Part shown: positions 2,071 through 33,411 of the stretch, one piece after another
Layout: each line of letters begins with the position of its first letter
Numbering within the stretch: position 1 is the stretch's first letter
Program-made: the position numbers and the translations under genes
The notes under the pieces: generated by a model
Seen by the model: the letters and a program-made list of their open reading frames with translations, nothing else
Database searches by the model: none
What the model was told of the DNA's origin: nothing
Assembly (NCBI RefSeq): GCF_058153355.1
Contig: NZ_CM177019.1
Reading direction: 5' to 3' (one strand)
DNA: 64,000 nt

Positions 2071-2353
2071 CAGGTAATGTGAGTAGAGGTTGTGACGATT
2101 AAGCCTCTACTCTTACATCAATCTGTAAATGCCCCATTTTCTCCTCTCTTTGGTCCGACTCCGCAATTTCGTATATTTTTCAATAGTGTTAATGTTTTGT
2201 CCAAGTAAAAATTACCAGACATTCGGAGGTTTTTAACTAACATTTATAGTGGGTAAATTGGTGGGATACGCTTAACCTTAAAAAATCAATATAAACAATA
2301 GGTTATGATTGGTGTTTGTCTTATCGGATGAACTAATTTAAATGGAGTACTAA

Positions 2354-2617
2354 ATGGCTACTTTAATGGAAAAAGATTCTCTCCTGAATGGCGTAAGTCA
2401 AAATATTGCATTTTTATCAAATGTATCAGAAATGATTTACAAGTCCCAGAATGAAGAATTACAAAAGGAGATATATGAATTGGTGAGTTATAGAGACTAT
2501 TTATATTCAACAGGCCATGAACTCGTTGATTTCAAGGAAGGAGTATTGCGATTTCAGCAAGTTAGAAAAAAATACATGCAGGATCTAAAAGCGCTAGGTT
2601 ATCCCGCAACCAATTGA
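2354..2617 (+). CDS. hypothetical small protein in an AT-rich intergenic islet
   Basis: 87 aa ORF in a markedly AT-rich segment (about 2100-2790); no recognisable motif. Confidence 0.3.
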   Translation: MATLMEKDSLLNGVSQNIAFLSNVSEMIYKSQNEELQKEIYELVSYRDYLYSTGHELVDFKEGVLRFQQVRKKYMQDLKALGYPATN

Positions 2618-2797
2618 TAAATATGTCTTTATATTAATTTTAGGATGTGGATAACCTGCTGAAATTTATATTAAAAATGAAATAAAAATATTAAATTCAT
2701 ATCATGCTTGCGTTTTGTTCTCGATAACGCGTAATTTTGTTGAATGCTTTCTCCTGTGAATGCAAAACCAGGCAGTTTCCCGCCCGGCCTTCCTCAC

Positions 2798-4282
2798 TTA
2801 CGCATTCGACCAGCTCTGGATCGAATCTTCATTCCCCAGCTCACCATGCATCACTTCATACGATTTTTTCAGGATCACATCAGTGTGTTTGGTTAGGTCT
2901 TTGAAAATGCCTTTATTCATCGCGTCGTAGCGTTTGGCGTTGCTCTCAACAGGCATAAAGATATCTTTCACGCGAACCATTTTGTCGACAGCCGTTGCGT
3001 AATCCGGGTATAGCCCCAGACCTACCGCCGTATTAATCGCTGCCCCCAGGCTTGCACAACCGTTAATGGCGTTACGTCGTGCCGGAAGGTTGAACACGTC
3101 GGCAAAAATTTGCATAAACAGATCGCTGTTCGAACCGCCGCCAGTAATGATCACATGTTTCGCAAAGTGATTCATTTCATGACACATATTGTCGTAATTG
3201 TTCTTCAGCGTCAGCGTCAGCGCCACGCTTTCCAGTATCGAACGATATATCCATGCGTAATCCATGCTGGAATCAAAGCCGATCATAATCCCGCGTTTGT
3301 ACGGTTCCCACGGATTGGTCAGCCAGTCCAGCACCGTCATCAGACCATTACAGCCAGGCGGCACACAACAAGCTTTTTTGTTGAGCAAATCTTCCGGTGA
3401 AAGATCCTGCGCCCTGGCATCCTGAATTAACGATTCGCCTAGCATGTCGCGCAGCCAACTCACCGTCCACATGCCTTTGCGAATACCGTAACCTTCATAC
3501 AGCAAGGTTTGCGGAATAGAAGACATAATCGGCCAGTACGCTACCGGATCTTTCGGCAGTACTTTGCCGTTCATCATCAACGCGATGTAAGTGCCAAGAG
3601 AAATTACCGCAGTTTCATCATCCAGTAACCCGGCTCCCAGTGCTTCTACCGGTTTATCACTGGTGGTACAAACAACCGGCAGCCCAGCCGGGAAATGTGT
3701 CGCCAGCGCGGCTTGTGGTGTGATATGCCCAAGAACAGTGCCCGGCATTTGCACATCAAAAAGCATCTGTTGGGGAATATTAAACTTCTCCATTACCGCG
3801 GTATCTTCGCTCCATGCCCAGGTCTTATAATCCACCGGCCACTGACCAAAATAGTTGGCGATATTGTCTTTAAACTCGCCGGTTAAACGGTGTGTCAGAT
3901 AACCTGAAAAAGAGGTGACATATGCCACATCAGGATTGGTGTGCTCGTAGGGACGTGTTACGCGTGCATCCTGCCAGCTAATCAACGGCGCAGCTGGCGT
4001 GCCATCGGCTTTCAATAACGCACGGCAGCAACGGATAGATCCCAGACCAATGCCGACAATATCTTCTTTATTCCCGGCAAACTGGCTCATCAAATCGTGA
4101 CCAGCAAAACATAATGATGCCCATAAATCATCGTCAGGATGTTCTGCGGTATCGGCATCTGGAGTGTGCATCGGTTGTAATAAGCCTTTGCCTTCGCAAA
4201 CCACGTTACCTTCCAGATCGTACATCACCACTTTTGTGCTCTGACTTCCGCCATCAATCCCTATGATGTATTTTTTCGACAT
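2798..4282 (-). CDS. ygcE: FGGY-family carbohydrate kinase
   Basis: 494 aa ORF; N-terminal IGIDGGSQSTK kinase signature. Confidence 0.85.
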   Translation of the reverse strand: MSKKYIIGIDGGSQSTKVVMYDLEGNVVCEGKGLLQPMHTPDADTAEHPDDDLWASLCFAGHDLMSQFAGNKEDIVGIGLGSIRCCRALLKADGTPAAPLISWQDARVTRPYEHTNPDVAYVTSFSGYLTHRLTGEFKDNIANYFGQWPVDYKTWAWSEDTAVMEKFNIPQQMLFDVQMPGTVLGHITPQAALATHFPAGLPVVCTTSDKPVEALGAGLLDDETAVISLGTYIALMMNGKVLPKDPVAYWPIMSSIPQTLLYEGYGIRKGMWTVSWLRDMLGESLIQDARAQDLSPEDLLNKKACCVPPGCNGLMTVLDWLTNPWEPYKRGIMIGFDSSMDYAWIYRSILESVALTLTLKNNYDNMCHEMNHFAKHVIITGGGSNSDLFMQIFADVFNLPARRNAINGCASLGAAINTAVGLGLYPDYATAVDKMVRVKDIFMPVESNAKRYDAMNKGIFKDLTKHTDVILKKSYEVMHGELGNEDSIQSWSNA

Positions 4283-18604: not shown

Positions 18605-18770
18605 ATATTGCCGGATAAAATAAACGCCTCTGTCAGAAATGATGGGGGCGTTTTTATTTTGCGAGCCGCATTCCGGCATTTAAACGTGAATATAGCAGGG
18701 GAAATCAACAGTTATAGAATGGCGTCGGGTGCTTGAGGCTGTCTGGTGTTGAGCATTCGCGAGGTTCCAG

Positions 18771-18874
18771 ATGGACAAAAGCCCCAGGCGATATATCTAT
18801 CAACCTGAGGCTTACGTTCGAACCCAAACAATTCGAATGTTAGTCTCTTCTTTGCAGGGAGGCAAGACATGCTG
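18771..18874 (+). CDS. Mok-like leader ORF overlapping the hok start (translational coupling)
   Basis: ATG 18771 to TGA 18872-18874, overlapping the hok ATG at 18869; arrangement typical of hok/mok loci. Confidence 0.3.
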
Positions 18875-19021
18875 ACAAAATATGCCCTTGTGGCAATCAT
18901 CGTACTGTGTTGTACAGTACTGGGATTCACGCTGATGGTAGGCGACTCGTTGTGTGAGTTGAGTATCAGAGAACGTGGTATGGAGTTTAAGGCAGTTCTC
19001 GCTTACGAACCGAAGAAGTAG
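18869..19021 (+). CDS. Hok/Gef-family type I toxin (HokE-like membrane peptide)
   Basis: 50 aa [50 protein letters not shown]; close to my recollection of K-12 HokE (not checked against a database); below the ORF-track length cutoff. Confidence 0.7.
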
Positions 19022-19259
19022 CCACCACGCGGGGGTAAAACCCCGCGTATTGAATTGTGATGGTTTGGTCTCCTGCACCCTTTTTTTCATTTATATTGTT
19101 TTTGTGAATATTATGCCTGTGTTTATTATTTATATATATCACAGATGAAAATCATTGAATTATTCATAATGTAAATATTTTATTGAACGATATATATCAC
19201 AGATAATTTTTAATATATGCGTAAATATCCTTTAAGTTTTACTGAAGGATAAAAACATT

Positions 19260-20936
19260 GTGACTTTCTTTGATTTCTGGGGAAAAACCCGACGTGGCGA
19301 GAAAGAGGGTGGCGACGATTATCACCTTCTTTGCTGGCATTCGCTGGATGTAGCCGCGATAGGCTATTTAATGGTCAAAAACAACTGTTTCGGGCTGGCT
19401 GACTATTTTCGTCAATTAGGTTTCGCTGACACGGATCAGGCAGCACAATTTTTCGCCTGGTTGTTGTGCTGGCACGATACTGGAAAATTTGCCCGCTCAT
19501 TTCAGCAACTTTACCTGCACCCACAACTCAAGGTTCCGGAAGGCGCAAGAAAGAATTACGAAAAGATCTCTCATTCAACGCTGGGTTACTGGTTGTGGCA
19601 TCATTATTTAATTGAATGTGAAGAGTTGCTTCCTTCATCTTCACTCTCTTTGCGCAAACTTAAACGGGTAATAGATATGTGGATGCCCGTGACGACCGGG
19701 CATCATGGTCGGCCTCCTGACCGTATCGATGAACTGGACAACTTTCTACCTGAAGACAAAGCTGCCGCACGAGATTTTCTCCTTGAAATCAAGGTACTGT
19801 TTCCGCTCATCGAGATCCCTACATTCTGGGATGATGACGAGGGCGTTGAACTTATAAAACATCTTTCCTGGTATATATCTGCAACCGTCGTACTCGCAGA
19901 CTGGACGGGATCGTCAACGCGGTTTTTTCCACGCGTCGCACATGTAATGGATATTAAAGATTACTGGCAGAATGCTTTAGCTCAGGCTCAAAACGCATTA
20001 ACCGTCTTTCCTCCAAAAGCAGAAACCGCACCTTTCACTGGAATTAACACGCTGTTTCCTTTTATTGAGAACCCAACACCGTTACAGCAAAAGGTGCTGG
20101 ATCTGGATATCAGCCAGCCAGGACCGCAGTTGTTTATTCTGGAAGATGTGACTGGCGCAGGTAAAACAGAAGCGGCGCTTATCTTGGCGCACAGGTTGAT
20201 GTCTGCGGGGAAAGCACAGGGTTTGTTTTTTGGCCTGCCAACAATGGCAACGGCCAATGCCATGTACGATAGGCTGGTAAAAACCTAGCTTGCTTTCTAT
20301 TCGCCACAATCCCGCCCCAGCCTGGTGCTGGCACACAGCGCTCGTTCGCTAATGGATCGCTTTAACGCATCGCTGTGGTCTGGTGATTTTGTGGGGTCAG
20401 AAGAACCGGATGAACAAGCGTTCAGTCAGGGATGTGCGGCCTGGTTTGCTGACAGTAACAAGAAGGCGTTGCTGGCTGAAATTGGCGTCGGCACGCTGGA
20501 TCAGGCGATGATGGCGGTGATGCCGTTCAAACATAATAATCTGCGGCTTCTGGGGCTGAGTAACAAAATCCTGCTAGCCGATGAGATCCACGCCTGTGAC
20601 GCTTATATGTCGTGCATTCTTGAAGGGCTGATCGAGCGGCAGGCGCGTGGCGGAAACAGCGTTATTTTGCTTTCTGCTACGTTGTCTCAACAGCAGCGTG
20701 ACAAACTCGTCGCCGCCTTTGCGCGTGGTGCAGAGGGCCAGCAAGAAGCTCCGTTGCTGGAAAAAGATGATTATCCCTGGCTGACGCATGTCACGAAATC
20801 CGATGTGCATTCGCACCGGGTAGCGACGCGCAAAGACGTTGAGCGCAGCGTGAGTGTGGGTTGGCTTCATAGCGAACAAGAGTGTATTGCGCGTATCGAA
20901 TCGGCGGTAAGGTGTTCCCCGCGCCAGCGGGGATAA
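19260..20936 (+). pseudogene. cas3: cas3 (type I-E) pseudogene: in-frame TAG at 20286-20288 and 3' truncation into a CRISPR repeat
   Basis: HD-nuclease motifs (WHSLDVAA, WHDTGKF) and helicase Walker A (TGAGKTEAAL); ORFs 19260-20288 and 20325-20936 are in the same frame separated by one amber codon; the frame ends inside the first repeat; total about 557 codons versus about 890 expected. Confidence 0.75.
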
Positions 20937-21062
20937 ACCGTCGACAATGGATAAGTTGACTTCAGGTCTGGGGAGTTCCCCGCGCTAGCGGGAATAAACC
21001 GTGCAGTACGCCTGATGACAAACCAAGCATCGGGAGTTCCCCCGCGTCAGCGGGGGAACTCC
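20912..21062 (+). CRISPR. minimal type I-E CRISPR array: 3 repeats, 2 spacers of 32 bp; last repeat degenerate
   Basis: Repeats gtgttccccgcgccagcggggataaaccg (20912-20940), gagttccccgcgctagcgggaataaaccg (20973-21001), degenerate gagttcccccgcgtcagcgggggaactc (from 21034); spacers 20941-20972 and 21002-21033. Confidence 0.85.
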
Positions 21063-21083
21063 CAGCTCCCATTTTCAAACGCC

Positions 21084-22121
21084 TCATGACGCCTTCGCCA
21101 GTTCCTTCACTAGCGGTAGCATTATCCGCATAACGTCACGGCAGCGACGTTCTATTCTTCCAGGAAGCGCCTTATCAATATGCTGTTGATTATCAAGCCT
21201 TACATCATGCCAGCTATTTCCCGCCGGGAAGGCCGGTGTTTTTGCGCGTTGCTGATAACCATCCTTATTTCCAAGATTCCAGTTGGTCGCCTCCACCGAA
21301 AGTACCGCAATACCGGCTTTGTCGAAAACTTCTGCATCGTTACAACACCCAGTGCCTTTCGGATAGTTTTTATTCAAACCTGGATTTGTTGTCGCTGCAA
21401 TCCCATGATTATGCGCAATTGCCAGCGCTCGATCACGGGTTAATTTCCTGACAGCCTCTGGTGTATTTACACCACTATTAAAATACAATTTATCGCCAAC
21501 AATTAAGTTATCGAGATTAATCACCAGCAGCGTATTTTTCTTTTCAGTATCGCTCATGCGCTTGAGTAAATTCTCAGCGCCTAATTTCCCTTCTTCTTCT
21601 CCACTGGTTGCCACAAAACGAATACCATACTCGGTAGGCGTATTTTTCAGACGTTCAGCCAGTTCCAGCATGACACCTAAACCTGCGGCGTTATCATCCA
21701 TTCCTTGTAATGTCAGCCCGCCGAGATTGGCATCGGCGTCGGCATCGCTCAGTGGAGCGTACGTATCAAGATGCGCCATAATAATGATCTGCTGCGGCGC
21801 TTTGCCTTCATGAGCGGCAATCACCGTACTTCCCGTCACGTTGTGCCAGTTTTTGCGGTTATCGCGGGCGGTGTAAATATATCGGCTATTAAATGTCCGA
21901 ATATCACTGCGATAACCCATCTGTTGAAACTGTTGGCGAATATAATCGGCAGATAACATTTCTGCAGGAGTTCCGGTCATGCGTCCCGGAAAGAAAGTAG
22001 CAATATGTCGTGCCTGTGTATTAGCAAAATCACCAGGTTTAGGTGACGAGGCGTGTACGGGGAGAATAAAGCATACGCCGAGCGCCAGGGCAGCGGTACG
22101 GTGGCGCAATGCGGAAAACAT
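21084..22121 (-). CDS. iap: alkaline phosphatase isozyme conversion aminopeptidase
   Basis: 345 aa ORF with signal peptide; position next to the CRISPR array as in K-12. Confidence 0.85.
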   Translation of the reverse strand: MFSALRHRTAALALGVCFILPVHASSPKPGDFANTQARHIATFFPGRMTGTPAEMLSADYIRQQFQQMGYRSDIRTFNSRYIYTARDNRKNWHNVTGSTVIAAHEGKAPQQIIIMAHLDTYAPLSDADADANLGGLTLQGMDDNAAGLGVMLELAERLKNTPTEYGIRFVATSGEEEGKLGAENLLKRMSDTEKKNTLLVINLDNLIVGDKLYFNSGVNTPEAVRKLTRDRALAIAHNHGIAATTNPGLNKNYPKGTGCCNDAEVFDKAGIAVLSVEATNWNLGNKDGYQQRAKTPAFPAGNSWHDVRLDNQQHIDKALPGRIERRCRDVMRIMLPLVKELAKAS

Positions 22122-25881: not shown

Positions 25882-26193
25882 ATGGGTAAACTAACGCTGC
25901 TGTTGCTGGCTATTCTGGTCTGGCTACAGTATTCGCTGTGGTTCGGTAAGAACGGTATACATGACTATACCCGCGTCAATGATGATGTGGCGGCACAGCA
26001 AGCTACAAACGCGAAACTTAAAGCGCGAAACGATCAACTTTTTGCCGAAATTGACGATCTCAATGGCGGCCAGGAGGCGCTCGAAGAGCGTGCGCGTAAT
26101 GAACTCAGCATGACCAGGCCGGGCGAAACTTTTTATCGTCTGGTGCCTGACGCGTCGAAACGCGCACAGTCTGCGGGGCAAAACACTCGATAA
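25882..26193 (+). CDS. ftsB: cell division protein FtsB
   Basis: 103 aa ORF with N-terminal TM segment and coiled-coil region. Confidence 0.9.
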
Positions 26194-26211
26194 ATCAGCC
26201 CGGGAATTAAC

Positions 26212-26922
26212 ATGGCAACCACTCATTTGGATGTTTGCGCCGTGGTTCCGGCGGCCGGATTTGGCCGTCGAATGCAAACGGAATGTCCTAAGCAATATCT
26301 CTCAATCGGTAATCAAACCATTCTTGAACACTCGGTGCATGCGCTGCTGGCGCATCCCCGGGTGACTCGTGTCGTCATTGCCATAAGTCCTGGCGATAGC
26401 CGCTTTGCACAACTTCCTCTGGCGAATCATCCGCAAATCACCGTTGTAGATGGCGGTAATGAGCGTGCCGATTCCGTGCTGGCAGGTCTGAAAGCCGCTG
26501 ACGGCGCGCAGTGGGTATTGGTGCATGACGCCGCTCGTCCTTGTCTGCATCAGGATGACCTTGCGCGATTGTTGGCGTTGAGCGAAACCAGTCGCACAGG
26601 GGGGATCCTCGCCGCACCGGTGCGCGATACCATGAAACGTGCCGAACCTGGCAAAAATGCCATTGCTCATACCGTTGATCGCAACGGCTTATGGCACGCG
26701 CTGACGCCGCAATTTTTCCCTCGTGAGCTGTTACATGACTGTCTGACGCGCGCTTTAAATGAAGGTGCGACTATTACCGACGAAGCCTCGGCGCTGGAAT
26801 ATTGCGGATTCCATCCGCAGTTGGTCGAAGGCCGCGCGGATAACATTAAAGTCACGCGTCCGGAAGATTTGGCACTGGCCGAGTTTTACCTCACCCGAAC
26901 CATCCATCAGGAGAATACATAA
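26212..26922 (+). CDS. ispD: 2-C-methyl-D-erythritol 4-phosphate cytidylyltransferase
   Basis: 236 aa ORF; [11 protein letters not shown] motif. Confidence 0.9.
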
Positions 26923-27401
26923 TGCGAATTGGACACGGTTTTGACGTACACGCCTTTGGCGGTGAAGGCCCAATTATCATTGGTGGCGTACGCATTCCTT
27001 ACGAAAAAGGGTTGCTGGCGCATTCTGATGGCGACGTGGCGTTACATGCACTGACCGATGCATTGCTTGGTGCAGCGGCGTTGGGGGATATCGGCAAGCT
27101 GTTCCCGGATACCGATCCATCATTTAAAGGGGCCGACAGCCGCGAATTGCTGCGCGAAGCCTGGCGTCGTATTCAGGCGAAGGGTTATACCCTTGGTAAC
27201 GTCGATGTCACTATCATCGCTCAGGCACCGAAGATGTTGCCGCATATTCCACAAATGCGCGTGTTTATTGCCGAAGATCTCGGCTGCCATATGGATGATG
27301 TTAACGTGAAAGCCACTACTACGGAAAAATTAGGATTTACCGGGCGTGGGGAAGGGATTGCCTGTGAAGCGGTGGCGCTACTCATTAAGGCAACAAAATG
27401 A
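26922..27401 (+). CDS. ispF: 2-C-methyl-D-erythritol 2,4-cyclodiphosphate synthase
   Basis: 159 aa ORF; [10 protein letters not shown] motif. Confidence 0.9.
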
Positions 27402-28427
27402 TTGAGTTTGATAATCTCACTTACCTCCACGGTAAACCGCAAGGTACCGGGCTGCTGAAAGCCAATCCGGAAGACTTTGTGGTGGTGGAAGATTTGGGCT
27501 TTGAGCCTGATGGTGAAGGTGAGCATATTCTGGTTAGAATCCTCAAAAACGGCTGTAATACCCGTTTTGTGGCGGATGCACTGGCGAAATTCCTGAAAAT
27601 TCATGCCCGTGAAGTCAGCTTCGCTGGGCAAAAAGACAAACATGCTGTTACGGAACAGTGGTTATGCGCTCGCGTGCCAGGCAAAGAGATGCCCGATCTC
27701 AGTGCTTTTCAACTGGAAGGTTGTCAGGTGCTGGAGTATGCGCGGCACAAGCGTAAGCTGCGTTTAGGGGCGCTGAAAGGTAACGCTTTTACCCTGGTAC
27801 TCCGCGAAGTGAGCAATCGTGATGACGTTGAACAACGTCTGATCGATATTTGCGTAAAAGGTGTACCGAACTACTTTGGTGCCCAACGTTTTGGTATTAG
27901 CGGCAGCAACTTGCAGGGTGCGCTGCGCTGGGCGCAAACCCATACTCCGGTGCGTGATCGCAATAAACGGAGTTTTTGGTTGTCGGCAGCCCGCAGTGCG
28001 TTGTTTAATCAGATTGTTGCTGAGCGCCTCAAAAAAGCAGACGTTAATCAAGTTGTTGACGGCGATGCGCTACAATTAGCCGGACGTGGTAGCTGGTTTG
28101 TTGCAACCACCGAAGAACTGGCGGAATTACAGCGTCGCGTCAACGATAAAGAGCTGATGATTACTGCTGCATTGCCGGGCAGTGGCGAATGGGGAACTCA
28201 GCGTGAAGCGCTGGCATTCGAACAAGCAGCTGTCGCCGAAGAAACTGAATTGCAAGCCTTACTGGTGCGCGAAAAAGTTGAAGCCGCGCGCAGAGCGATG
28301 CTGCTGTATCCGCAACAATTAAGCTGGAACTGGTGGGATGACGTCACCGTAGAAATCCGTTTCTGGCTTCCGGCAGGCAGTTTTGCGACCAGCGTTGTCA
28401 GGGAACTTATCAACACAACAGGTGATT

Positions 28428-28447
<20 letters not shown>
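27398..28447 (+). CDS. truD: tRNA pseudouridine13 synthase
   Basis: 349 aa ORF. Confidence 0.9.
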
Positions 28448-29809
<1,362 letters not shown>

Positions 29810-29948
29810 AACGTGAGGAAATACCTGGATTTTTCCTGGTTATTTTGCCGCAGGTCAGCGTATCGTGAACATCTTTTCCAGTGTTCAGTATGGTGCCTTG
29901 CACGGTAATTATGTCACTGGTTATTAACCAATTTTTCTTGGGGGATAA

Positions 29949-31088
29949 ATGAGCGCGGGAAGCCCAAAATTCACCGTTCGCCGCATTGCGGCTTTGTCAC
30001 TGGTTTCGCTATGGCTGGCAGGCTGTTCTGACACTTCAAATCCACCGGCACCGGTCAGCTCCGTTAATGGCAATGCGTCTGCAAACACCAATTCTGGTAT
30101 GTTGATTACGCCGCCGCCGAAAATGGGGACGACGTCTACAACGCAGCAACCGCAAATTCAGCCGGTACAGCAGCCACAAATTCAATCTGCACAACAACCG
30201 CAAATCCAGCCGGTGCAGCCAGTTGCTCAGCCGCCGGTACAGATGGAAAACGGACGCATCGTCTACAACCGTCAGTATGGGAACATTCCGAAAGGCAGTT
30301 ATAGCGGCAGTACATACACCGTGAAAAAAGGCGACACACTTTTCTATATCGCCTGGATTACTGGCAATGATTTCCGTGACCTTGCTCAGCGCAACAATAT
30401 TCAGGCACCATACGCGCTGAATGTAGGTCAGACCTTACAGGTGGGTAATGCTTCCGGTACGCCAATCACTGGTGGAAATGCCATTACCCAGGCCGATGCA
30501 GCAGAGCAAGGAGTTGTGATCAAGCCTGCACAAAATTCCACCGTTGCTGTTGCGTCGCAACCGACAATTACGTATTCTGAGTCTTCGGGTGAACAGAGTG
30601 CTAACAAAATGTTGCCGAACAACAAGCCAACTGGGACCACGGTCACAGCGCCTGTAACGGTACCAACAGCAAGCACAACCGAGCCGACTGTCAGCAGTAC
30701 ATCAACCAGTACGCCTATCTCCACCTGGCGCTGGCCGACTGAGGGCAAAGTGATCGAAACTTTTGGTGCTTCTGAGGGGGGCAACAAGGGGATTGATATC
30801 GCGGGCAGCAAAGGACAGGCAATTATCGCGACCGCAGATGGCCGCGTTGTTTATGCTGGTAACGCGCTGCGCGGCTACGGTAATCTGATTATCATCAAAC
30901 ATAATGATGATTACCTGAGTGCCTACGCCCATAACGACACAATGCTGGTCCGGGAACAACAAGAAGTGAAGGCGGGGCAAAAAATAGCGACTATGGGTAG
31001 CACCGGAACCAGTTCAACACGCTTGCATTTTGAAATTCGTTACAAGGGGAAATCCGTAAACCCGCTGCGCTATTTGCCGCAGCGATAA
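29949..31088 (+). CDS. nlpD: murein hydrolase activator lipoprotein NlpD (LysM + M23 domains)
   Basis: 379 aa ORF; lipobox LAGC, Gln/Pro-rich repeats, LysM and peptidase-M23-like C-terminus. Confidence 0.9.
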
Positions 31089-31150
31089 ATCGGCGGAACC
31101 AGGCTTTTGCTTGAATGTTCCGTCAAGGGATCACGGGTAGGAGCCACCTT

Positions 31151-32143
31151 ATGAGTCAGAATACGCTGAAAGTTCATGATTTAAATGAAGATGCGGAATT
31201 TGATGAGAACGGAGTTGAGGTTTTTGACGAAAAGGCCTTAGTAGAAGAGGAACCCAGTGATAACGATTTGGCCGAAGAGGAACTGTTATCGCAAGGGGCC
31301 ACACAGCGTGTGTTGGACGCGACTCAGCTTTACCTTGGTGAGATTGGTTATTCACCACTGTTAACGGCCGAAGAAGAAGTTTATTTTGCGCGTCGCGCAC
31401 TGCGAGGAGATGTTGCCTCCCGCCGCCGGATGATCGAGAGTAACTTACGTCTGGTGGTAAAAATTGCCCGCCGTTATGGCAATCGTGGTCTGGCTTTGCT
31501 GGATCTTATCGAAGAGGGCAACCTGGGGCTGATCCGCGCGGTAGAGAAGTTTGACCCGGAACGTGGTTTCCGCTTCTCAACATACGCAACCTGGTGGATT
31601 CGCCAGACGATCGAACGGGCGATTATGAACCAAACCCGTACTATTCGTTTGCCGATTCACATCGTAAAGGAGCTGAACGTTTACCTGCGAACCGCACGTG
31701 AGTTGTCCCATAAGCTGGACCACGAACCAAGTGCGGAAGAGATCGCAGAGCAGCTGGATAAGCCAGTTGATGACGTCAGCCGTATGCTTCGTCTTAACGA
31801 GCGCATTACCTCGGTAGACACCCCGCTGGGTGGAGATTCCGAAAAAGCGTTGCTGGACATCCTGGCCGATGAAAAAGAAAACGGCCCGGAAGATACCACG
31901 CAAGATGACGATATGAAACAAAGCATCGTCAAATGGCTGTTCGAACTGAACGCCAAACAGCGTGAAGTACTGGCACGTCGATTCGGTTTGCTGGGGTACG
32001 AAGCGGCAACACTGGAAGATGTAGGTCGTGAAATTGGCCTCACCCGTGAACGTGTTCGCCAGATTCAGGTTGAAGGCCTGCGCCGTTTGCGCGAAATCCT
32101 GCAAACGCAGGGGCTGAATATCGAAGCGTTGTTCCGCGAATAA
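31151..32143 (+). CDS. rpoS: RNA polymerase sigma factor RpoS (sigma-38), apparently intact
   Basis: 330 aa from [22 protein letters not shown] with no internal stop; ORF-track start 31115 is an upstream extension. Confidence 0.95.
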
Positions 32144-32157
32144 GTAAGCATCTGTTA

Positions 32158-32195
32158 GAAAGGCCAGTCTCTTATGAGGCTGGCCTTTTTCTTTT
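32158..32195 (+). terminator. rho-independent terminator of rpoS
   Basis: aggccag-tctcttatgagg-ctggcct stem-loop followed by ttttcttttg. Confidence 0.7.
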
Positions 32196-32263
32196 GTATG
32201 GGGAGTTGGTGTGTTTCGTCGCCTGGATAAGACACGTCAGCGTCCCATCCGGCAATCAACATC

Positions 32264-32671
32264 CTATTTGCTCATCATCTTGCGCACCAGCTGCATAAAC
32301 AGCTCCTGCTCTTCTCCACTCAAACGCCCCAAAAATTCCTCATCCACACTGTCGCCAATCGGTATCGCCGCAGCAAGTACCTTTTCTCCTTCGGCAGTCA
32401 GCCAGACAAAGCGTCGCCGCTTATCAGCGGTGTCATGTTCACGTCTGACTAAGCCACGATTTTCCATTCTTGCCAACATTTCTGCCAGCGTTGCTTTGGT
32501 GCTGACGGCTGCTTCCATCAGTGCCACCTGTTCGATACCAGGTTTATCAGCAATGGCGCGCATCACCGCGTACTGTGGTTTGGTCAGGTCAGGTAACTCG
32601 TGCTGCCAGCGGGCCGTATGCTGCTGAAAAAGCTGTCGTAACTGATGGAACGCTTTATTTCGTAACGCCAT
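32264..32671 (-). CDS. MarR-family transcriptional regulator, divergent from the decarboxylase operon
   Basis: 135 aa ORF; assignment by reading the translation, no domain search run. Confidence 0.75.
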   Translation of the reverse strand: MALRNKAFHQLRQLFQQHTARWQHELPDLTKPQYAVMRAIADKPGIEQVALMEAAVSTKATLAEMLARMENRGLVRREHDTADKRRRFVWLTAEGEKVLAAAIPIGDSVDEEFLGRLSGEEQELFMQLVRKMMSK

Positions 32672-32787
32672 GTAAACTCCGGGCTAATTCTCTGTCGCTA
32701 TCATAGCGGTTTTTCAGTGACGAAGAAGATGTTGTTACTTTTCAATCCTTGCCGCTGTGGAAATGAAGGAGTATGCTAATAATAACG

Positions 32788-32799
32788 TTCGTATACGAA
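32788..32799. promoter_or_regulatory. perfect 12-bp palindrome TTCGTATACGAA in the MarR/decarboxylase divergent promoter region (candidate operator)
   Basis: Self-complementary 12-mer located 19-30 bp upstream of the UbiX-like start codon. Confidence 0.3.
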
Positions 32800-32817
32800 C
32801 AATTAAGAGAGTAAGCA

Positions 32818-33411
32818 ATGAAACTGATCGTCGGGATGACAGGGGCTACCGGTGCGCCTCTTGGTGTGGCATTACTGCAAGCGCTGCGGGAGATGCCGAA
32901 TGTCGAGACTCATCTGGTGATGTCGAAGTGGGCGAAAACCACTATTGAACTGGAAACGCCTTACAGCGCTCGCGATGTTGCCGCCCTCGCTGACTTCAGC
33001 CATAACCCGGCGGATCAGGCTGCGACCATCTCTTCCGGCTCCTTTCGTACCGACGGCATGATCGTTATTCCATGCAGTATGAAAACGCTCGCCGGTATCC
33101 GCGCTGGTTACGCCGATGGTCTCGTAGGGCGCGCGGCGGACGTCGTGCTCAAAGAAGGCCGCAAACTGGTGCTGGTGCCGCGTGAAATGCCGCTTAGCAC
33201 CATCCATCTCGAAAATATGCTCGCACTTTCGCGCATGGGCGTGGCGATGGTGCCGCCGATGCCTGCCTTTTATAACCATCCCGAAACGGTAGATGACATT
33301 GTCCACCACGTGGTAGCCCGCGTGCTGGATCAATTTGGCCTCGAACATCCTCACGCCAGGCGCTGGCAAGGGTTGCCGCAGGCCCGGAATTTTTCTCAGG
33401 AGAATGAATAA
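32818..33411 (+). CDS. UbiX/Pad1-family flavin prenyltransferase (decarboxylase subunit B; EcdB-like)
   Basis: 197 aa ORF; MKLIVGMTGATGAPLG flavoprotein motif. Confidence 0.85.
   Translation: MKLIVGMTGATGAPLGVALLQALREMPNVETHLVMSKWAKTTIELETPYSARDVAALADFSHNPADQAATISSGSFRTDGMIVIPCSMKTLAGIRAGYADGLVGRAADVVLKEGRKLVLVPREMPLSTIHLENMLALSRMGVAMVPPMPAFYNHPETVDDIVHHVVARVLDQFGLEHPHARRWQGLPQARNFSQENE

What the first reader, a model, noticed from the sequence alone, without database searches (positions are those of the whole stretch)
19260..21062. Decayed type I-E CRISPR-Cas locus: cas3 pseudogene fused to a three-repeat array, other cas genes absent
cas3 carries an in-frame amber codon at 20286-20288 and its frame runs directly into the first CRISPR repeat at about codon 557, so roughly the last 330 codons are missing. 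casA-E, cas1, cas2 and the leader are absent, and only three repeats (the last degenerate) and two spacers remain before iap. The locus cannot be functional. A deletion joining cas3 to the array is the simplest explanation.
Basis: partly seen in the sequence, partly recalled or inferred. Interest (0 to 1): 0.6.

Follow-up and report, generated by a model that had tools for sequence, protein, structure and literature searches.

The report
Decayed CRISPR locus: cas3 stump plus repeats
This is a dead remnant of an E. coli type I-E CRISPR-Cas immune system, a known kind of decay, in which a 7-kb deletion joined a broken cas3 gene exactly to the first base of a CRISPR repeat; at least nine other E. 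coli lineages made the same precise kind of joint independently.

Summary
Between cysH/hok-sok and iap lies the 5' 61% of an E1-variant (non-K-12) cas3 gene (19260-20911). It has a private TGG>TAG nonsense codon at 20286-20288. It is fused without any gap to a CRISPR2.1 repeat (20912-20940), then spacer, repeat, spacer and the conserved degenerate trailer repeat (to 21063).

At least 6,964 bp are missing: the cas3 3' end, casA-E, cas1, cas2 and the leader. The second I-E array site (queE-ygcE, 2071-2797) has no repeats either. The system is dead.

This exact junction occurs in none of 5,426 complete E. coli genomes. The close relative EC42405 keeps the whole operon.

The state "only a cas3 stump and a few repeats" is already documented (Touchon and Rocha 2010; Geue 2017), so the finding itself is ordinary.

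What I add: ten distinct cas3-to-array fusion alleles, this one included. All break cas3 at different places between nt 1196 and 2459. All resume at nucleotide 1 of a repeat, with no microhomology above 1 nt and no PAM signal.

Chance cannot explain that precision. It points to the adaptation machinery, either Cas1-Cas2 joining or recombination with a self-derived spacer. That mechanism is inferred, not shown.

The parts
18727..18884 (+). hok/sok regulatory RNA region (marker of the cas-E1 arrangement)
   Evidence: Rfam RF01794 sok, 111.5 bits, E 7e-26. Almendros 2014 (PMC3903273) reports hok-sok in all strains except those carrying the E2 variant.
18869..19021 (+). hok-family toxin ORF (50 aa)
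   Evidence: NCBIfam HokA E 2.9e-14. Annotated as Hok/Gef in all relatives.
19217..19259 (+). Former 5' end of cas3 (annotated ATG start of intact E1 cas3), out of frame because of an extra T at 19237
   Evidence: Alignment with L004. The insertion is shared with L001 and L007, and cas3 of L007 is annotated 'frameshifted'.
19260..20911 (+). cas3 pseudogene: 5' fragment with a complete HD nuclease domain and the first part of the helicase core, equal to nt 44-1694 of the 2700-nt gene
20286..20288 (+). Private nonsense codon TAG (TGG in relatives; G>A at 20287)
   Evidence: L001, L004 and L007 all have TGG.
20911..20912 (+). Deletion junction: last cas3 base | first base of a CRISPR repeat
20912..20940 (+). 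CRISPR2.1 repeat 1 (perfect I-E consensus GTGTTCCCCGCGCCAGCGGGGATAAACCG)
20941..20972 (+). Spacer 1 (32 nt), identical to the penultimate spacer of strain GF131
20973..21001 (+). Repeat 2 (3 mismatches; the same variant repeat as in GF131)
21002..21033 (+). Spacer 2 (32 nt), the trailer-end spacer shared with 2020CK-00188 and GF131
21034..21063 (+). Degenerate terminal (trailer) repeat, a 14+14 nt perfect palindrome, conserved next to iap in other strains
21084..22121 (-). iap, the right-hand boundary gene of the CRISPR-I locus
   Evidence: annotations of relatives.

Best explanation
The segment is the non-functional remnant of a type I-E (cas-E1 variant) CRISPR-Cas locus at the cysH-iap site of a divergent E. 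coli lineage. One deletion of at least 6,964 bp removed the 3' 1,006 nt of cas3, casA-B-C-D-E, cas1, cas2 and the leader. It joined cas3 nt 1694 to nucleotide 1 of a CRISPR2.1 repeat. A G>A change then, or independently, made an amber codon in the stump, and the array now holds only the two oldest spacers. All of this is shown by comparison. Nothing here can make Cascade, process crRNA, acquire spacers or degrade targets. How the joint was made is inferred. Ten independent E. coli alleles break cas3 at unrelated sequences, yet all resume exactly at a repeat's first base. The array-side end was therefore set by something that measures repeat boundaries. I think the most likely agent (about 0.4) is the Cas1-Cas2 integrase. 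Its normal first step joins a DNA 3'-OH to the 5' end of the leader-proximal repeat on this very strand. If the 3'-OH belonged to the cas3 top strand (a nick, a broken end or a stalled nascent strand) rather than to a trimmed prespacer, replication of that branched product would give exactly cas3|repeat with the leader and cas genes lost. The system would then have deleted itself.
For: Anatomy and deletion map. Private amber codon. A close relative has an intact operon: EC42405. Loss of the second array. The exact junction is unique. Ten distinct cas3->repeat alleles all start at repeat nt 1 (cas3 nt 1196, 1470, 1486, 1555, 1569, 1671, 1694, 2046, 2168, 2459). My own arithmetic puts the chance of a hit in the 61-nt register, with 1-nt tolerance, at 2/61 per event, or about 1e-15 for ten events. 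No microhomology above 1 nt and no shared motif at the cas3 ends. No IS at the junction. One allele (13E0767) was described with the same repeat-edge endpoint by Geue 2017, PMC5359238. The strand polarity of the product matches the established first transesterification of E. coli Cas1-Cas2 (established knowledge, not tested here).
Against: No experiment or intermediate ties Cas1-Cas2 to these joints. The integrase is known to use short trimmed prespacers, and use of a chromosomal 3' end is unprecedented to my knowledge. All ten left ends lie in cas3. None was found in casA, casB or cas7, and neither mechanism explains that. The survey was biased towards short arrays and towards cas3 nt >700. 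One casA-to-array fusion (EC596) ends inside a repeat, so other routes exist. The window's array keeps only trailer-end spacers, so it cannot be shown that the joined repeat was the leader-proximal one.
Confidence: 0.85

Rival explanations
1. Self-spacer recombination. Cas1-Cas2 first acquired a normal 32-nt spacer from the cell's own cas3. Homologous recombination, or single-strand annealing after self-targeting damage, between that spacer and its source in cas3 then deleted everything in between. This leaves cas3 sequence running into the next repeat at its first base.
For: It predicts the exact repeat-edge junction and the direct orientation seen in all ten alleles. The window has AAG at 20878-20880, which would be a canonical PAM for a 31-nt spacer. 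Spacers of 31 nt do occur in these arrays. GF131 has ATG and 2020CK-00188 has GAG at exactly -35..-33. Self-cas targeting followed by cas loss has been proposed for I-F (Vercoe 2013 discussion; Touchon and Rocha 2010).
Against: Only 1 of 10 alleles has the E1 acquisition motif AWG at the required position, and the triplets are TCT, GAA, GCT, CCA, CGT, GTG, CAA, ATA, ATG, GAG. None of 89 distinct spacers in the fetched arrays matches the cas operon. It needs two rare events, including recombination over only 32 bp. It does not explain why casA, casB and cas7 never serve as the left end.
Confidence: 0.3
2. Ordinary illegitimate deletion (replication slippage or microhomology end joining) whose array-side end fell at a repeat edge by chance or because of the repeat hairpin.
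For: Other deletions in the same operon do look like this: KL53 has TTA microhomology and PI12 has CCG(C)TTA. EC596 ends inside a repeat.
Against: Ten of ten cas3->array alleles sit at repeat nt 1 with at most 1 nt of microhomology. The repeat's stem begins 5 nt inside the repeat, so a hairpin would not mark nt 1.
Confidence: 0.07
3. IS-mediated loss of the cas genes, the route documented for several E. coli and Shigella arrangements.
For: Almendros 2014 infers IS186/ISu recombination for some cas-less arrangements. IS421 and IS1 sit in or near cas3 in several relatives.
Against: No IS, IS end or target duplication lies at or near 20911/20912. cas3 sequence abuts a perfect repeat.
Confidence: 0.02
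4. The remnant is retained because it still does something, for example the palindromic trailer repeat acting as the iap terminator, or the mini-array serving a system encoded elsewhere.
For: The trailer repeat and the oldest spacers are conserved across lineages, a persistence also noted by Touchon and Rocha 2010.
Against: The terminator scan does not call the palindrome. No leader or promoter signal exceeds the shuffles. No I-E Cas6e or Cascade gene is present in the window. B2-type strains lose the whole block without replacement (L006).
Confidence: 0.05

Closest known systems
Degraded Ecoli-subtype (I-E) CRISPR/cas loci of Escherichia, Shigella and Salmonella (Touchon and Rocha 2010, PMC2886076)
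   Same: [quoted passage not shown] This window is in exactly that state.
   Different: That work does not give junction coordinates. This lineage and breakpoint are new, and here the second array locus is also empty.
aEPEC O156:H8 strain 13E0767 cas3-to-CRISPR2.1 deletion (Geue et al. 2017, PMC5359238)
   Same: A deletion from inside cas3 (codon Gly683) to the edge of a CRISPR2 repeat, leaving a cas3 stump plus a short array. I re-derived it as cas3 nt 2046/2047 | repeat nt 1 (L012).
   Different: The cas3 breakpoint differs (2046 versus 1694). It is a different lineage, has no amber codon, and keeps 6 repeats there. It was reported as a single case without comparison to other alleles.
CRISPR-I locus arrangements and the cas-E1/E2 variants (Almendros et al. 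2014, PMC3903273)
   Same: Same chromosomal site (cysH-iap), the hok-sok plus E1 cas3 module, and cas loss as a recurrent event.
   Different: Their loss routes are IS-IS recombination and module replacement. The text read does not mention the cas3|repeat fusion class.
Cas1-Cas2 spacer integration (first transesterification at the leader-repeat junction) in E. coli I-E
   Same: The product joins a 3' end to the 5' end of the repeat on the leader-containing strand. That is the topology of the cas3|repeat joint. This is established knowledge, not tested here.
   Different: The normal donor is a 33-nt trimmed prespacer and the reaction adds a unit. Here the donor would be chromosomal cas3 DNA and the result is a 7-kb loss.
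Self-cas targeting / anti-cas spacers in orphan I-F arrays of E. coli (Touchon and Rocha 2010; discussed in Vercoe 2013, PMC3630108)
   Same: The idea that the system's own adaptation can lead to loss of its cas genes.
   Different: That evidence is spacers matching cas-F genes in arrays. No cas-matching spacer is seen here, and this is subtype I-E.

Membership tests
[quoted passage not shown] | Full-length Cas3 (HD nuclease plus complete SF2 helicase and C-terminal domain) | tested here: not met
   Only profile positions 6-523 of 878 are covered, with an internal TAG, and 1,006 nt of the 3' end are absent.
[quoted passage not shown] | Cascade genes casA-E (cse1, cse2, cas7, cas5, cas6e) | tested here: not met
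   No space and no ORFs between 20911 and iap. The block present in L004 and L007 is missing.
[quoted passage not shown] | cas1-cas2 and an AT-rich leader upstream of the first repeat | tested here: not met
   cas3 coding sequence abuts repeat 1. The 96-nt leader of L004/L007 is absent.
[quoted passage not shown] | 29-nt I-E repeats separated by 32-nt spacers | tested here: met
   Two repeats 61 nt apart plus a degenerate third; 0 expected by chance.
E. coli CRISPR2.1 (iap-proximal) array | Position between cysH and iap, with a conserved degenerate trailer repeat next to iap | tested here: met
E. coli CRISPR2.1 (iap-proximal) array | Trailer-end spacers shared with other strains | tested here: met
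   Spacer 1 is identical to one in GF131. Spacer 2 is identical to one in 2020CK-00188 and differs by 1 nt in GF131.
cas-E1 variant (non-K-12) of E. coli I-E | cas3 homologous to E1 cas3, not to K-12 ygcB, and linked hok-sok module | tested here: met
   91-99% identity to E1 cas3 in 2,698 genomes; K-12 genomes match only iap. hok/sok present. The criterion comes from Almendros 2014.
cas3|repeat-edge fusion class of decayed loci (defined here) | Uninterrupted cas3 5' sequence ending at the base before nt 1 of a consensus repeat, with no leader | tested here: met
   Junction at 20911|20912. Nine further alleles have the same property.
Deletion by recombination with a cas3-derived spacer | Acquisition motif AWG at -35..-33 from the repeat, i.e. 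immediately 5' of a 32-nt protospacer | tested here: inconclusive
   The window has CAA there, and AAG is displaced by one base (it fits only a 31-nt spacer). Across the alleles 1 of 10 has AWG.
Cas1-Cas2-catalysed joining | Dependence on the Cas1 active site, with a branched half-site intermediate | not testable with these tools
   Needs experiments. Only product topology and repeat-edge precision are consistent.
IS-mediated cas deletion | IS copy or IS end at the deletion joint | tested here: not met
   None in 19000-21100.

The most novel reading that the evidence does not exclude
The adaptation machinery of E. coli I-E systems recurrently destroys its own locus. Cas1-Cas2 acts either by joining a chromosomal cas3 3' end to the leader-proximal repeat, or by installing a cas3-derived spacer that then recombines with its source. 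Either route produces cas3|repeat fusions at single-base precision. On this reading CRISPR-Cas loss in Enterobacteria is partly an enzymatic, self-inflicted reaction with a readable scar, and this window carries one such scar.
Probability: 0.55. Interest if true: 0.6.

Novelty: new member of a known kind. Interest (0 to 1): 0.38.

Why it matters
As a single locus it matters little. It is one more E. coli lineage that has lost I-E immunity, which is useful only for typing and for knowing the strain has no I-E defence. The wider pattern it belongs to could matter. Why CRISPR-Cas is so often lost, and how, is an open question. A single-base scar that recurs in at least ten independent events and in at least about 50 of 5,426 complete genomes would give a countable signature of one loss route. 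It would also give a directly testable hypothesis: Cas1-dependent self-deletion versus self-spacer recombination.

Tried and rejected
1. PAM test for a cas3-derived spacer: there is no enrichment, 1 AWG in 10 alleles.

2. Microhomology or a shared motif at the cas3 breakpoints: none beyond 1 nt, and no conserved column.

3. Chi-guided RecBCD ends: the E1 operon has three co-oriented Chi sites (cas5:593, casA:1026, cas3:2531). The breakpoints do not sit at Chi. No fusions were found left of the casA or cas5 Chi sites, so I dropped this as an explanation.

4. Spacers matching cas genes in the fetched arrays: none of 89.

5. IS involvement at this junction: none.

6. Search for the same junction: absent from 5,426 complete E. 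coli genomes and from GTDB species representatives.

7. Searches for fusions with left ends in cas3 nt <700, casA, casB or cas7 found none of the repeat-edge type. These searches only see arrays shorter than about 1-2.8 kb. cas5, cas6 and cas1 could not be surveyed with this tool.

8. Literature: no paper in the held library describes the recurrent repeat-edge rule. Touchon 2011 could not be read, and Diez-Villasenor 2010 carries no PMC id and was not looked up, so prior description cannot be excluded.

9. The promoter/terminator scan of the remnant gave nothing above the shuffles.

Full report
**What is in the window**

The region lies in the conserved cysJIH - [CRISPR-I] - iap - cysDNC neighbourhood of Escherichia. 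From left to right it contains:
- a hok/sok type I toxin-antitoxin module (Rfam sok at 18727-18884; Hok ORF at 18869-19021);
- an AT-rich spacer;
- a cas3-like reading frame starting at GTG 19260.

That frame is stopped by TAG at 20286-20288 and, read through, continues to 20911. NCBIfam places the two pieces on positions 6-351 and 366-523 of the 878-position Cas3 model. The HD domain is complete and only the first part of the helicase core is present.

At 20912 a perfect 29-nt type I-E repeat begins. It is followed by a 32-nt spacer, a second repeat with three mismatches, a second 32-nt spacer and a degenerate palindromic terminal repeat ending at 21063. The stop codon of iap (minus strand) is at 21084.

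The repeat pattern is found nowhere else in the 64 kb, and none is expected by chance.

**Which system, and what is missing**

The gene is the E1 variant of E. coli I-E cas3, not the K-12 (E2) type. It matches cas3 in 2,698 of 5,426 complete E. coli genomes at 91-99% identity, whereas K-12 genomes match only the iap end of the query. The linked hok-sok module is the marker that Almendros et al. 2014 associate with non-E2 arrangements.

I aligned the window with a complete E1 locus (L004, CP086623: cas3, casA, casB, cas7e, cas5e, cas6e, cas1e, cas2e, leader, array, iap). Homology runs without a break up to cas3 nt 1694 of 2700 and resumes at the trailer end of the array.

The missing block is the last 1,006 nt of cas3, all of casA to cas2 and the 96-nt leader. 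That is 6,964 bp plus an unknown number of repeat-spacer units.

The TAG is TGG in all three relatives compared, so it is a private G>A change and a separate lesion. An extra T at 19237 puts the annotated ATG start (19217) out of frame. This is shared with two close relatives, one of which has an otherwise complete operon annotated as 'frameshifted' cas3.

The other I-E array site, between queE (1399-2070) and ygcE (2798-4282), holds an AT-rich stretch with an 87-codon ORF but not a single repeat. No complete genome reproduces this arrangement. Within the window, I-E immunity is completely gone.

**Lineage and uniqueness**

A 7-kb housekeeping block (ispD to rpoS) is 99.5% identical to strain EC42405 and about 97% identical to ordinary E. 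coli. Only six genomes reach 99%. The source is therefore a divergent E. coli lineage.

EC42405 carries the whole cas operon and an 18-repeat array. Another close relative, 2020CK-00188, has its own different deletion: cas3 nt 2459 fused to a 12-repeat array.

No complete genome has the window's junction. The 36-nt junction string is also absent from the GTDB species representatives. The two remaining spacers are the last two spacers of strain GF131's array, and the last one is also the trailer spacer of 2020CK-00188. What survives is the oldest end of the array.

**The junction is not random**

In the window the last cas3 base (20911) is followed directly by nucleotide 1 of the repeat. I checked whether this was a coincidence by collecting other E. 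coli genomes in which a cas3 fragment lies close to iap and mapping each against L004.

Ten distinct alleles emerged, the window's included. Their cas3 breakpoints are at nt 1196, 1470, 1486, 1555, 1569, 1671, 1694, 2046, 2168 and 2459. Together they are carried by at least about 50 genomes.
- In every one the cas3 sequence stops at the base before repeat nt 1. In two alleles a single G is ambiguous.
- With a 61-nt repeat-spacer period, my own arithmetic puts the chance of this for ten independent breakpoints at about (2/61)^10, or 1e-15.
- The cas3 sides share no motif and have no microhomology to the repeat or to the leader end.
- One of these alleles (13E0767) was described by Geue et al. 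2017 as a deletion running from within codon 683 of cas3 to the edge of a repeat.
- Within the widespread 2046 allele the arrays differ by internal losses of units while the joint stays the same. So arrays keep shrinking after the fusion, which can explain why the window has only two spacers.

**Other deletions in the operon**

Not every deletion in this operon behaves this way.
- One casA-to-array fusion (EC596) ends inside a repeat.
- KL53 and PI12 are internal cas-to-cas deletions with short microhomologies.
- Three different left ends (cas3:2037, casA:420, casB:106) are all joined to one right end at cas2 nt 70. I noted this second recurrent right end but did not explain it.

Searches designed to find fusions with left ends in casA, casB, cas7 or the first 700 nt of cas3 found none of the repeat-edge type. 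These searches only detect short arrays, and cas5 to cas1 could not be surveyed.

**Mechanism (inferred)**

Only two processes 'know' where a repeat starts.

(a) The Cas1-Cas2 integrase. Its first chemical step joins a DNA 3'-OH to the 5' end of the leader-proximal repeat on the leader-containing strand (established knowledge). If the 3'-OH belongs to the cas3 top strand, the product after replication is cas3|repeat, with the leader and the cas genes lost. This matches the observed polarity and needs no PAM and no homology.

(b) A spacer taken from cas3, followed by recombination between spacer and source. This also gives a repeat-edge joint, but predicts the acquisition motif AWG 32 nt upstream.
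- That motif is present in 1 of 10 alleles.
- In the window AAG is displaced by one base, compatible only with a rare 31-nt spacer.
- None of 89 spacers in the fetched arrays matches the cas operon.

I therefore rank (a) above (b), but neither is demonstrated, and neither explains the restriction of left ends to cas3. Chi sites were considered and do not fit.

**Comparison with what is known, and verdict**

Relic I-E loci in which only a cas3 pseudogene and a few repeats remain were reported for Salmonella and Shigella by Touchon and Rocha 2010. IS-mediated and modular losses at this site were reported by Almendros et al. 2014, and one repeat-edge allele by Geue et al. 2017.

The finding is thus a new allele of a known kind of decay.

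The recurrent single-base precision of the array-side breakpoint is the one feature I could not find described as a rule in the papers available to me. It turns the question of how CRISPR-Cas loci are lost into something that can be counted in genomes and tested at the bench.

Noticed in passing
window 2071-2797 (queE-ygcE intergenic, the CRISPR-II / CRISPR2.2-2.3 site): There are no CRISPR repeats at all. Only an AT-rich stretch remains, with an 87-codon ORF (2354-2617) that has no NCBIfam match. Parts of it resemble at about 90% the 'hypothetical protein' stretch that lies beside CRISPR2.2/2.3 in other strains. No complete E. coli genome covers 80% or more of this arrangement.
   Followed up: partly
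L015, L017 (cas3:2037), L021 (casA:420), L022 (casB:106), all joined to cas2 nt 70 (L004 19554); L019 cas3:2037 -> cas2:61: Three different left breakpoints share one identical right breakpoint inside cas2 ('...TA|CTGGAAGTGCG', with AAG 4 nt downstream). All left ends finish in GTTA or GTA. This is a second recurrent fixed right end in the same operon, and it is unexplained.
   Followed up: partly
L020 (strain EC596) 1962-2008: casA nt ~1165 is fused inside a repeat, leaving '...ATAAACCG' (the crRNA 5'-handle part of the repeat) followed by a normal spacer. This is the only cas-to-array fusion found that is not at a repeat edge.
   Followed up: partly
L004 13747, 15039, 17782 (cas3:2531, casA:1026, cas5:593); same sites in L007: The E1 cas operon carries three Chi sites. 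All are on the coding strand, the orientation active for RecBCD entering from the array side, and none is on the other strand in L004. All three lie in the block deleted from the window.
   Followed up: partly
window 19237; L001 and L007 equivalents: An extra T in a T-run shifts the annotated ATG start of cas3 out of frame in this lineage, including in EC42405, whose operon is otherwise complete. Either the real start is the GTG at 19260 or cas3 was already impaired before the deletion.
   Followed up: partly
window 26000-33000: The housekeeping block (ispD, ispF, truD, surE, nlpD, rpoS) is about 97% identical to typical E. coli, and only 6 of 5,426 genomes reach 99%. The source belongs to a rare divergent E. 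coli lineage, together with EC42405. Part of the block (from about 6190 of the query) is missing in many genomes, the known variable region next to rpoS.
   Followed up: no
L010 (strain LHM10-1) array: The 33-nt spacer CCAGAAAAGACATACATTATTTCAGCCTGATGC is present twice in tandem in an array that has no cas1-cas2. This is a repeat-spacer unit duplication after loss of the adaptation genes.
   Followed up: no
window 18620-18662: There is a weak sub-threshold Rfam match to ctRNA_p42d (30 bits against a gathering score of 50). It coincides with the cysH terminator hairpin and is most likely chance.
   Followed up: no
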